Shown here piece by piece: positions 29,141-59,658 of a DNA stretch of 64,000 bases. Under the pieces are notes generated by a model that saw only the letters and a program-made list of their open reading frames with translations, did no database searches and was not told where the DNA came from. This stretch comes from Gekko japonicus (taxonomy: Eukaryota), in contig NW_015170887.1 in assembly GCF_001447785.1 (NCBI RefSeq), positions 1,342,201 through 1,406,200 of the forward strand, read 5' to 3'. The position numbers and the translations under genes are program-made. The stretch's first letter is position 1. Each line of letters starts with the position of its first letter.

Positions 29141-29231
29141 TAGGATTGCCACACACCCCCCCAACGGAAGCCAGAGGTGACATCATCGCATCAGGCACAT
29201 CACATGAGGGACACTCTCGCTGGCAACCCTA
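29141..29231. mobile_element. Short hAT MITE (TAGGGTTGCCA family, internally deleted)
   Basis: taggattgcca...tggcaacccta with TSD GACCAGAC. Confidence 0.8.
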
Positions 29232-29239
29232 GACCAGAC

Positions 29240-29446
29240 CAGTGTTCCCTCTAAGCTGAGTTAGTGTGAGCTAGCTCACTGTTTTTTTAGCCTCCAGCTC
29301 ACACATTTTTGTCTTAGCTCAGGAAGGATGGCTCCAGAGCAAACTAATTTATGCAGTAGCCAAATTGCTCGCTCACAACTTTAATGCCAGTAGCTCACAA
29401 AGTAGAATTTTTGCTCACAAAACTCCACAGCTTAGAGGGAACATTG
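29240..29446. mobile_element. hAT MITE (CAGTGTTCCCTCTAAGCTG TIR family)
   Basis: TIR cagtgttccctctaagctg / cagcttagagggaacattg and TSD GACCAGAC. A second copy lies at 53931-54136. Confidence 0.9.
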
Positions 29447-29963
29447 GACCAGACCCTTATGTGTAAGCTCCAAAAGAGTCTTTATGGCCTAAAGGAAGCA
29501 GCCAGAGTGTGGAATGAGAAATTAAATGAAGTACTCACCAGAGAAGGATTCATGAGAGGCAAAACAGATCCATGTTTGTACACCAGAAAGCAAGATAACC
29601 AATGGACATACATCCTGATTTGCATGGATGATATAATACTTTGTTTTGAACAAAAAGGGGGATATGATAGGATAATGCACCAGTTGAATCAAAAATTTGC
29701 AGTGAAGCAACTGAGGGACATCACATACTATCTTGGTACTCAGGTAGAAAGAGAAGCTGATGGGACCTATCTCCTTGGTTAGAAACAAAAAATAACTGAG
29801 ATGTTGGAGCATTTTGGAACGAAAGATGCAAAAGAGGTGAAAACACCCATGGAAGTAGGATGCCTGAAAAATGACAGCAGTCAAGAAGCATTGTCAAATA
29901 ATAATCAATATTGTGAGGCAATCGGAAAACTATTGTATCTAGCCACAGTGTCTAGGCTGGATA

Positions 29964-30581
29964 TTATTATTATTACATTCCATTTGTATACCGCTCACCC
30001 CCTGAGGGCTCTGAGCAGTTCACATTACATACAACACAAGCAAATCCTAACCTAGGGCCACATACATACAAGGGGGAGAGTGACTAGCCTACGAGGCACC
30101 CTTGTAGCTAGTCGTTGTTGTCTGCGGGAGCTCATTCGATGATGTCCTCCTGGCGCTGGTCTTTGATTGTTGTTGCGACTTCCTGGCTGTTGCGACTCCT
30201 TCAGGCTTGGACCGAGCGCACGTCCGCGCATGCTCGCTGCCGACCTCTGTCCAGTAGGCTCCAGCCTGCTGCGTCGCCCTGCCTCCGTGCTTTTTGCCGT
30301 CCCAGCCTCCTCTCACTTTGCCTCGCCAGCCGCCGCCATGTTTCTCCGCCGCTGCTCACCGTTCACGCCGCCGCTACACCGCAAGGGACGGGTGCCCCCC
30401 CGCTCTAAGAGCAGGTACCCATTTGTCTATTTGCCCTTTAACAGGCTTTCGAGCCGCTGGGTAGGCGGGAGCTGGGACATAGGGCCGGGTGCTCACCCCG
30501 GCCGCGGTGGGGCTCGAACAGCTGAAGCTGTTCGGCCAGATGTCAATGCAGGCTTCACTTACCGCTTGCGCCACTGCTCCC
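29964..30581 (-). mobile_element. CpG-rich chimeric SINE-like element: tRNA/Sauria-like head, unique body, L2-type tail and (TAA)n
   Basis: The minus strand starts gggagcagTGGCGCAAGCGG...GTTCGAGCC. It interrupts Copia RT between RLDI and SAAVGLLSR. Confidence 0.8.
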
Positions 30582-31887
30582 TATATAAGTGCTGCTGTAG
30601 GACTTCTGAGTAGGAAAGCTTTTTCATCTAGCCAAGCAGACTGGAACACAGTGAAAAGAGTGATGCGGTATCTGAAGGGAACAAGCCAGCAACTGCAGAT
30701 CCAAAACTAAAAGCATATGTGGACACTGATTGGGCTGGGGACAGCACTGATCGGAAATCCACAAGTGAATATCTGTTTCAGTATGGAGAAGGTACCATTA
30801 GCTGTGCAAACCCAAACCAAACAATTGTAGCACTTTCTTCAACAGAAGCAGAATATGTTGCAGCTGCCAAGAGGCTATCTGGATTCACCAGTTAATTTTA
30901 GACTTAGGACTGGATAGACCTGAACCAATAGCAACCTTTGAGGACAATCAAGGGTGTATAAAACTGTAACAGACTAAAAAGGTCAACCCAGGGTCTAAGC
31001 ACATTGATGATAAGTATCATCTTCTGAAAGTTATGCAGAAGTAAGGACTCATTAACTTGCAGTATTTACAAACCGAAGAATTGACTGCTGATGCTCTCAT
31101 GAAACCATTGCCTAGAGACTGCAATTGGACCCTCCTAGCAAGACTAAACATGATGGAATAGTAAACATGCTGTTGTGAAGGACTGTTGGAGAAGTGACAG
31201 CCTGCTTAGAGTCTAATTACTGTAAATACTGCTGAAAAAGTAGTTTAGTCCGCTTGTACCTAGGGGGAGTTGTGGAGCATTCTCTAGTGTTTAGGGGTTT
31301 TTTAATGTTTTCTCTTGCAGTTGAGCCTACCTCAATTGTTTCTCTCTCTGCTGTGTGTTAGTATGTGTTACTGCTTGTGCTCTGAATGCCTCTCTGTTGT
31401 ATTAATGGCAGGCAGTTATTGTCTTCTTTTGCAAAAATCCCGTTGCAGTAAACGAATTGAAAGCAGACTCCAAAGCGCGGATTGGATTATTCCTGAACTC
31501 TGCCAACAAGAACATGATATCATTGGGCTACACTATAAGCAGAAGGCAGCAATGGCTCCAGATTCTTCTGAGTCAAACTTGGCCTCTGGCCACCTGACTG
31601 TCATTTTGCACTTACTTTGCTGTGTGGTCCTTGGTCAAGCCCAGACATGTCAAGCAGCAGCAGGAAAAGGCTCCTAAATGGCCTATGGCAGAGACAGCAT
31701 TTCCCCAACTCAAGTCTCCATCTCTACCATTCGTATAAACAGCCAGAACAGTGAGAGGAGGGGGGGTCCATTTTATTTTTACTTGCTCATCAGCTGAGTG
31801 CAAAAAAGGCCTAAGGCCACCCCTGTTGCATGGCACAAAATCATCTACTGAATGCACACAATTGTTGCCACATGAAAGTATGGCAAC

Positions 31888-38849: not shown

Positions 38850-39412
38850 TTTTGTTATTGTTATTATTATTATTATTAGTAGTAGTAGTATTAATTTGAT
38901 TTTTACCCCACCCTACCCCGCCGAGGCAGGCTCAGGGCGGCTTACAAAGAAAACAACAAATAAAACAATATAAAATCGATATAAAATACACAATAAAGTT
39001 ATTAAAACCATTAGCATAACGATAGCGCCACAACTGTAGCAAAGTGCACATACGGCAGTGCCTCCACTATTGGTGGGCTCAGGCTAGAAAAAAAGTTGGC
39101 ACAGGACAAGGATGATGCAACGCAGCTCCTTACCTAAATGCCTGATGGAAGAGCTCCATTTTTGCGGCCCTGCAGAACTGTGAAAGGTCCCTCAGGGCCC
39201 TGATCTCATCTGGAAGCTCATTCCAGTAAGTTGGAGCTGCCACAGAAAAAGCCCTGGACCTGGTCGATACCAGCCTGCCAGCCTGGCATGTTTAGGACCG
39301 GGGGGGGGGTAGACGATTTTGCGACCCGGACTGCAGTGCTCTCTGGGGAACATGTGGGGAAAGGCAGTCCCTCAGGTAGTCAGGTCCCTGTGACCATAAA
39401 GGGCTTTAAAGG
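38850..39412 (-). mobile_element. L2-clade LINE 3' end with (TAT)/(TAG) microsatellite tail
   Basis: Minus-strand tail tgtaagccgccctgagcctgcc...gggtggggtaaaaat, and an ORF2 end reading FKALYG..PxLWNELP. Confidence 0.75.
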
Positions 39413-59426: not shown

Positions 59427-59658
59427 TCCTGCCAACCTAGCAGTTCGTAAGCAAGAAATTGCAAGTAGATAAAGAGGTACCACTTCAGTGGGAAGGTAAC
59501 AGCGTTCCATGCGCCTTGGTGTTTAGTCATGCCGGCCACATGACCACGGAAATGTCTTCGGACAGCGCTGGCTCTTCGGCTTTGAAACAGAGATGAGCAC
59601 CGCAACCCTAGAGTCGGACTCGACTGGCTTTCGAGCAAGAGAACCTTTACCTTTACCT
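59427..59658 (+). mobile_element. Sauria SINE, 5'-truncated
   Basis: tcctgccaacctagcagttcg...(ACCTTT)n tail with TSD ttcaaggaactc. Confidence 0.9.

What the first reader, a model, noticed from the sequence alone, without database searches (positions are those of the whole stretch)
29964..30581. Candidate undescribed chimeric SINE: Sauria-type Pol III head with an L2-type tail instead of the RTE/BovB-type tail
Seen: a ~620-bp CpG-rich insert splits Copia RT. On the minus strand it begins GGGAGCAG, then an A-box (TGGCGCAAGCGG) and a B-box (GTTCGAGCC). Next comes tcccgcctacccagcggctcgaaagc...gcaaatagacaaatgggtacc, which aligns by eye to the Sauria SINE at 59427 (tcctgccaacctagcagttcgtaagc...gcaagtagataaagaggtacc). 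It then diverges into ~350 bp of unique sequence and ends tgtgaactgctcagagccctcagggggtgagcggtatacaaat plus (TAA)n. That stem-loop tail resembles the L2 tail at 38860-38945. Known: Sauria SINEs end in a BovB-related tail with (ACCTTT)n, and a SINE's tail determines which LINE mobilises it. Inference: a relatively young SINE family that switched its LINE partner to L2.
Basis: partly seen in the sequence, partly recalled or inferred. Interest (0 to 1): 0.72.

Follow-up and report, generated by a model that had tools for sequence, protein, structure and literature searches.

The report
Sauria-core lizard SINE with L2 tail
This is one copy of a jumping repeat, present in thousands of copies in a lizard genome, that shares its front end with the known Sauria SINE but ends in the tail of a different LINE group and is likely copied by that group's enzyme; the pairing is probably old and probably already known in outline from the green anole.

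Summary
The 618-bp insert (30581-29964, minus strand) interrupts a Copia RT and belongs to a real SINE family: 40 of 40 scored hits are 87-100% identical, and a diagnostic 20-mer has 3,312 exact hits against 48,767 for Sauria. Its ~90-nt core is 75-79% identical to Sauria and keeps four helices, one a pseudoknot, each with a compensatory change. The tail has the fold of an L2 family's tail found in this genome (score 26, shuffles 11, Sauria end 8). Long target duplications are missing (1 of 31, against 9 of 16 for Sauria), and T4 runs are depleted (1 against 12 expected), as expected for L2 integration and Pol III transcription. 'Young switch' is not supported. Only this subfamily is young. 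The family splits into many lineages (25 of 25 sampled bodies under 85% alike) and lies on a long branch from Sauria. The exact partner LINE was not found. Tail exchange is well known, and Anolis SINE 2 (an L2 partner) probably has the same design (recalled, not tested). Verdict: a probably undescribed member of a known kind, with two extras worth testing: a structured core also seen in one apparently non-vertebrate SINE, and bush-like evolution.

The parts
30503..30581 (-). tRNA-like head with A-box (30573-30562), an 8-bp hairpin that overlaps the B-box (30534-30515) and B-box (30519-30511)
   Evidence: sequence; 27 of 30 fetched copies align from query position 5 or less; no tRNA call by ARAGORN; 69-82% identity to Sauria at the boxes, 33-40% between them
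30414..30502 (-). Sauria-shared core: hairpin, then a predicted pseudoknot (helix 30468-30454, loop pairing with 30421-30417) with a variable hairpin inside
   Evidence: 75% to Sauria for this copy, 79% for the family; 97% of cells paired, one two-sided change in each of 4 helices; pair tally over 113 copies
30390..30413 (-). family-specific hairpin and GGCACCC motif; likeness to Sauria ends here
   Evidence: 83% within the family, 25-28% to Sauria
30102..30389 (-). GC- and CpG-rich, T-poor, fast-changing body of unknown origin
   Evidence: homologous across lineage A (this copy 14 bits, shuffles at most -1); no more stable than shuffles (mean z 0.16, n=26); no match to Sauria's 3' half
30046..30101 (-). 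conserved pre-tail motif; its GGGTGC part is complementary to the GGCACCC motif and may close the body in one helix (inferred)
   Evidence: present across lineage A; complementary change on both sides in lineage B
29982..30024 (-). L2-type stem / GAG internal loop / upper stem-loop tail
   Evidence: score 26.2 against 26 L2 tails, shuffles 11.2, Sauria ends 8.2; same predicted fold
29964..29981 (-). GGAATG spacer and (TAA)4 repeat
   Evidence: sequence; TAA/TAAA repeats in other copies
29561..29963 (+). Copia RT-coding stretch left of the insert (host element, carries a stop); ATAT at the junction is the only duplication
   Evidence: Pfam RVT_2 E 2.2e-5; translation; duplication scan
30582..31050 (+). 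Copia stretch right of the insert (host element, with stops)
   Evidence: translation; DNA contigs join left and right without the insert

Best explanation
[quoted passage not shown] Steps: (1) A- and B-boxes drive Pol III through a unit kept free of T4 terminators (boxes and T4 loss shown; transcription inferred). (2) L2 ORF2 protein binds the 3' stem-loop and primes on the TAA/TAAA repeat, leaving no or very short duplications (fold and duplication pattern shown; binding inferred from eel UnaL2, PMC1636434). (3) The family likely arose once, long ago, when a Sauria-core SINE replaced its RTE-type 3' half by template switching (inferred). (4) Since then many small lineages have been active side by side, keeping head, core, pre-tail motif and tail while the body changes by indels and slippage (diversity shown; cause inferred).
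For: Family: 40 of 40 scored hits 87-100% identical, 27 of 30 fetched with the same 5' end and own 5' flanks; 3,312 exact hits of a core 20-mer, reversed control 0. Tail: of the first 30 core hits, 26 end in an L2-type tail (25 by pattern, 1 by eye), 4 are cut short, none has a BovB end, whereas 30 of 30 Sauria-core hits have the BovB-type end. An L2 family with RT (Pfam RVT_1 E 8e-16; relatives in lizards and teleosts) has the same tail fold. Duplications of 8 nt or more: 1 of 31 family copies (not adjacent; swapped-flank control 0 of 31), 9 of 16 and 6 of 9 Sauria copies. T4 runs: 1 in 31 full copies, A4 runs 65, shuffles 11.9 +/- 3.1, minimum 4. Head profile hits Sauria over positions 4-175 at E about 1e-23. 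Age: Sauria splits from 19 family rows with 100/100 support on a branch of about 0.8 changes per column; 25 sampled bodies form 25 clusters at 85%. Direction: L281 joins the core to a Sauria-like 3' half (score 64, shuffle maximum 34).
Against: No LINE with the family's exact tail was found: the 120 loci fetched behind four tail patterns (some repeated) were family copies, short tail-only pieces or L2 ends with the related CCGCTCTGAG/CCGCCCTGAG stem. The best L2 family matches at about half the within-family score (30 against 63). 'L2' rests on recalled ORF2 motifs and host range, since no hit is named L2. RNA-seq reads match the family (426, 65, 331 reads in 3 runs of one study) but on both strands, with 75-82% running on into other sequence and no shared start, so Pol III transcripts are not shown. 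The tree has no outgroup; the direction of the swap rests on one metagenome contig of unknown source. The compensatory changes are few events, not many (pairs with two-sided change 4, shuffles 3.5).
Confidence: 0.85

Rival explanations
1. It is simply the local form of Anolis SINE 2 (ACASINE2): same head, core and L2 tail inherited from a squamate ancestor, with a longer, changed body. This concerns identity, not mechanism, and is compatible with the best explanation.
For: Anolis SINE 2 is listed with A and B boxes and Anolis LINE 2 as partner (PMC3747384 table) and as L2-mobilised (PMC4476161 passage). The deep split from Sauria fits an old origin. Recalled, no call: repeat libraries use a class label joining tRNA, Sauria and L2 for this element.
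Against: A full-text search for five forms of that label gave 0 papers. As SINEBase defines families, long insertions count as modules, so a different 290-nt body would still make a separate family.
Confidence: 0.65
2. A recent tail switch from this genome's Sauria SINE produced a young family.
For: The window's subfamily is young: 1.0-5.3% non-CpG divergence in 17 copies; near-identical words were listed only for one organism.
Against: Family and Sauria are 60% alike over the 5' 200 nt, the family's lineages 83%; bodies average 57%; all lineages already carry the L2-type tail.
Confidence: 0.05
3. The L2-tailed form is ancestral and Sauria arose from it by gaining the BovB tail.
For: The family is far more diverse than Sauria here (67% against 91% mean identity over core plus 190 nt).
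Against: L281, with CpG-rich flanks unlike the window (0.89 against 0.27), has the core plus a Sauria-like 3' half and a six-base repeat tail. Sauria is spread across lizards and snakes (PMC13295347 passages). Low Sauria diversity can reflect a recent burst.
Confidence: 0.2
4. The element is a non-autonomous LINE derivative or Pol II-driven CpG-island unit rather than a Pol III SINE.
For: Body is CpG-rich (observed/expected 0.91) and the unit is long for a SINE.
Against: A- and B-boxes conserved, T4 runs depleted on the sense strand only; no body match to ten L2 loci with up to 8 kb of upstream sequence (those copies are 5'-truncated, so L2 5' UTRs were not tested).
Confidence: 0.05

Closest known systems
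Sauria SINE / Squam1 (Piskurek 2006, cited in PMC13295347 and PMC10702118)
   Same: tRNA-type head with A and B boxes; ~90-nt core 75-79% identical, same predicted fold
   Different: No BovB-shared 3' region, no (ACCTTT)n, no 9-14 nt duplications; 600 nt instead of about 335; GC-rich body; about 7% of Sauria's exact-hit count; many small lineages instead of one burst
Anolis SINE 2 / ACASINE2 (Piskurek 2009; not held, seen only as cited in PMC3747384, PMC4476161, PMC7116210)
   Same: Lizard SINE with A and B boxes and an L2 partner; recalled, untested: it also has the Sauria-type core
   Different: Sequence not seen, so identity of head, body and tail is untested; the CpG-rich body here does not match what I recall of it
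Squam3 (PMC7983390)
   Same: Squamate tRNA SINE with an L2-derived 3' end and very low rate of target duplications
   Different: Squam3 is 218-271 nt and CORE-derived; this family is 550-690 nt with the Sauria core; Squam3-like tails in the window score only 14.5 against this tail (label recalled)
Tail-exchanged SINEs and SINE superfamilies (ERE4B, IdioSINE2 in PMC5786205; MetaSINEs in PMC4824008)
   Same: Conserved central domain kept while the LINE-derived tail is replaced
   Different: The Sauria core is not among the domains named in the passages read (CORE, Deu, V, Ceph, alpha, beta, Meta); whether it equals alpha or beta was not testable
Eel UnaL2 / UnaSINE1 tail (PMC1636434)
   Same: Stem with an internal loop and upper stem-loop before a short repeat, shared by LINE and SINE
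   Different: Shown by assay for eel; only predicted here; loop sequence differs

Membership tests
SINE (general) | Short (<1 kb), interspersed, many copies with own flanks | tested here: met
SINE (general) | Internal Pol III promoter boxes and no internal T4 terminator | tested here: met
   boxes; T4 runs 1 against 11.9 expected in 31 copies
SINE (general) | Actual Pol III transcript from the first base | tested here: inconclusive
   RNA-seq reads on both strands, no shared start; library type not suited
Sauria SINE / Squam1 | Sauria head and core | tested here: met
   E about 1e-23 over positions 4-175; core 75-79%, stretch between boxes 33-40%
Sauria SINE / Squam1 | BovB-shared 3' region and (ACCTTT)n | tested here: not met
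   0 of 30 sampled family copies; tail score 8.2, below shuffles
Sauria SINE / Squam1 | RTE-type target duplications | tested here: not met
   1 of 31 at 8 nt or more against 9 of 16 and 6 of 9
L2-partner SINE | 3' stem-loop shared with an L2 LINE of the same genome | tested here: met
   clade name L2 from recalled motifs and host range; exact partner family not found
L2-partner SINE | No or short target duplications (1-9 bp in PMC4476161; very low rate in PMC7983390) | tested here: met
L2-partner SINE | Mobilisation in trans by L2 ORF2 | not testable with these tools
   needs a retrotransposition assay
Anolis SINE 2 / ACASINE2 | Sequence match to the consensus over head, body and tail | not testable with these tools
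   paper not held; no sequence in the supplements searched
Squam3 | 218-271 nt, CORE fragment | tested here: not met
   length 548-727 in 31 full copies against PMC7983390 text; CORE itself not aligned
Squam2 | Within the 190-350 nt range given for the three Squam families; own head and body | tested here: inconclusive
   length not met (PMC10702118); sequence not available
Known ribozymes or other Rfam families | Match to an Rfam model | tested here: not met
   only a chance hit at 10.7 bits; none on the core in four further loci

The most novel reading that the evidence does not exclude
The ~60-90 nt Sauria core is an unrecognised, pseudoknotted SINE central domain under RNA-structure selection, shared by reptile SINEs with RTE and L2 partners and by an apparently non-vertebrate SINE. 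The L2-tailed branch is undescribed and evolves as dozens to hundreds of small concurrent lineages whose upper tail loops may each track a different L2 lineage.
Probability: 0.25. Interest if true: 0.65.

Novelty: new member of a known kind. Interest (0 to 1): 0.42.

Why it matters
It is a natural pair in one genome: two SINE families with the same core but different LINE tails, different insertion signatures and very different population shapes (one burst of about 49,000 exact-hit copies against a bush of small lineages). That makes it a clean test of how far the tail alone sets partner and insertion pattern. The compensatory changes give a first concrete structure for a SINE central domain, whose function is an open question. 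For annotation, the body would be missed by libraries and can be mistaken for a CpG island.

Tried and rejected
ARAGORN found no tRNA in the window or four loci. Rfam gave nothing on the element. Four tail-pattern searches did not yield a LINE with the exact tail. The body is not more stable than shuffles, so a rod-like fold was rejected; the 'closing pairs' count is biased by where I cut and is not used. Body against ten L2 loci: no hit outside a neighbouring Sauria copy and the tail. PDB search with the L2 RT: 0 hits. Viral contigs: 0 hits for the core pattern; metagenomes: 4 hits, of which 3 (L282-L284) fail the head profile and were dropped. One search used a structure string shifted by one column and is disregarded; one search repeats the count by pattern. 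By eye I compared the core with HDV-like, twister, pistol and hammerhead layouts (recalled) and found no fit. No RNA holder was listed by the run index. Literature: 10 full-text searches found no description of a Sauria-core SINE with an L2 tail; Piskurek 2006 and 2009 and Grechko 2011 are not in the library, SINEBase supplements could not be read, and the alignment supplements of PMC10702118 are in unreadable formats; all may bear on novelty.

Full report
Observation. The quoted motifs are all present. The element runs 30581 to 29964 on the minus strand and sits in a Copia RT-coding stretch (Pfam RVT_2 on 1 of 3 flank pieces, E 2.2e-5; translations of each side). Contigs of two DNA runs join the two sides without the insert. 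The only duplication is ATAT. The host is a squamate by its repeats (Sauria SINEs; RT relatives in Podarcis, Varanus and Anolis).

It is a family. A DNA search gave 5,227 first-look candidates; the 40 scored are 87-100% identical. Of 30 fetched, 27 align from query position 5 or less, each with its own 5' flank. Exact-match counts, each with a reversed control of 0: 61 for a 27-mer of this subfamily, 190 for a 31-mer of the tail, 3,312 for a core 20-mer, and 48,767 for the matching Sauria 20-mer. These are lower bounds.

Relation to Sauria. A profile of the family's first 200 nt hits Sauria copies over positions 4 to about 175 at E near 1e-23. Identity to Sauria is 69-82% at the boxes, 33-40% between them, 75-79% over nt 80-168 and 25-28% after nt 169. 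The body does not match Sauria's 3' half (best 32, shuffle maximum 31.5). On 16 aligned cores (12 family, 4 Sauria), a four-helix model with a pseudoknot pairs 97% of cells (slid controls 24-41%), and each helix has one pair changed on both sides. These are few events, and the count of such pairs does not exceed shuffles. By pattern over 113 copies, the pseudoknot pair is C-G in 83 of 85 family copies and T-A in 26 of 27 Sauria copies; the neighbouring helix pair is T-A in 27 of 27 Sauria copies and C-G in 64 of 85 family copies, the rest mostly CpG decay. No Rfam family matches.

The tail. The L2 at 38860-38945 belongs to a family whose tails score 15.9 against this one (26 tails; shuffles 11.5, maximum 24). 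A second family, found through L170, scores 26.2 (26 tails; shuffles 11.2, maximum 23); 30 Sauria ends score 8.2. Both fold as a lower stem, a GAG internal loop and an upper stem-loop, with two stem positions changed on both sides between SINE and LINE. That family encodes an RT (RVT_1 E 8e-16) with relatives in lizards and teleosts; the name L2 rests on recalled ORF2 motifs and this range. No LINE with the SINE's exact stem was found among the 120 loci fetched behind four patterns. In eel, a stem with an internal loop in the shared L2/SINE tail is needed for retrotransposition (PMC1636434; abstract, discussion and figure legends read).

Independent signatures. Of the first 30 core hits, 26 end in an L2-type tail, 4 are cut short and none has a BovB end; 30 of 30 Sauria-core hits have the BovB-type end. 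Duplications of 8 nt or more occur in 1 of 31 full family copies, that one 81 nt away (control 0 of 31), against 9 of 16 and 6 of 9 full Sauria copies. Short or absent duplications are reported for L2 (PMC4476161 passage; PMC7983390 parts 1-2). The 31 copies hold 1 T4 run and 65 A4 runs; shuffles give 11.9 +/- 3.1 and flanks are balanced (111 and 95), which points to selection against Pol III terminators. RNA-seq reads from three runs of one study match the family (426, 65, 331), mostly at 90-95%, on both strands, with no shared start; only 6, 1 and 5 are 99% or more alike. Pol III transcription is therefore inferred, not shown.

Age and shape. The window copy differs from its subfamily majority at 1.4% of non-CpG and 10.6% of CpG sites, so this lineage is young. 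The family is not. In a tree of 26 rows, the 7 Sauria rows split from 19 family rows with 100/100 support on a branch of about 0.8 changes per column (midpoint root, no outgroup). Among 25 usable copies of the 30 unselected ones (3 dropped for truncation or N, 2 more for a broken body), no two bodies reach 85% identity (mean 57%, shuffles 54%), while 30 unselected Sauria copies average 91%. L264, dropped for N, looks like the same lineage as L265. The bodies are nonetheless homologous within lineage A: leave-one-out scores are 49-124 bits for 8 of 16 tested, and the window body scores 14 bits against at most -1 for shuffles; lineage B (L250, L252, L256, L269) has an unrelated or unrecognisable body and a different L2-type tail. 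Bodies are 11% T with CpG observed/expected 0.91 and fold no better than shuffles.

Direction. One of four metagenome hits, L281, has a different tRNA-type head, the same core (E 2.7e-10), a Sauria-like 3' half (score 64, shuffle maximum 34; family bodies at most 30.5) and flanks with CpG 0.89 against 0.27 in the window. Its core combines Sauria's pair in one helix with the family's pair in the pseudoknot. If it is an outgroup, core plus RTE-type end is ancestral and the L2 tail is derived. It is a single contig of unknown source, and RTE-linked elements move between hosts, so this is weak.

What is known. Tail exchange is documented (PMC5786205 parts 2-3 and passages; PMC4824008 passages). 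Sauria shares its 3' end with Bov-B and ends in (ACCTTT)n (PMC13295347 outline and passages). The three Squam families are 190-350 nt (PMC10702118 parts 1-3). Anolis SINE 2 is an L2 partner (PMC3747384 passages; PMC4476161 passages; named in PMC7116210 passages). I recall that it carries the Sauria-type core and that repeat libraries have a class label for this design; no call confirms it (one search gave 0 papers; supplements gave nothing). Also seen as passages without bearing: PMC3531059 (family definition used), PMC7561263, PMC3899998, PMC5381603, PMC10776941, and one supplement of PMC11303007.

Verdict. A real, probably L2-driven SINE family related to Sauria, not a member of Sauria, and not a recent switch. 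The design is probably known from the anole; this family, its structured core and its bush-like diversity were not found in ten searches. New member of a known kind, interest 0.42.

Noticed in passing
L281:215-600 (metagenome contig): tRNA-type SINE with a different head, the Sauria core, a Sauria-like 3' half and a six-base repeat tail, in CpG-rich flanks; possibly a non-vertebrate relative of Sauria SINEs.
   Followed up: partly
L009:2136-2258 and L012:2156-2278: Two copies with different 5' flanks share about 125-135 nt beyond the tail at 97% identity, ending shortly after a T4 run; looks like a 3' extension carried along.
   Followed up: partly
L250, L252, L256, L269: A second lineage with the same core but its own head, a shorter body and a different L2-type tail; may be a separate family or a second tail exchange.
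   Followed up: partly
window 30390-30396 and 30095-30101: GGCACCC before the body is complementary to GGGTGCC after it; lineage B changes both sides, suggesting a long-range helix that encloses the variable body.
   Followed up: partly
window 30515-30534: An 8-bp hairpin overlaps the B-box and is kept across lineage A with different loops.
   Followed up: no
window 5558+, 58490+, 57630-, 40712-: Four SINE ends with an L2-type stem and CTT/CCT tails, probably Squam3 (label recalled).
   Followed up: no
window 29222-29441: A ~220-bp insert with matching ends interrupts the same Copia further left; a similar insert sits in an L2 at L187. Probably a MITE.
   Followed up: no
L042, L150 and L287: Tandem arrays that include or abut the family's tail, reminiscent of SINE-derived satellites (PMC10702118).
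   Followed up: no
L156:2407-2516: 5S rRNA-like stretch above the Rfam cut-off, possibly a 5S-headed SINE or pseudogene.
   Followed up: no
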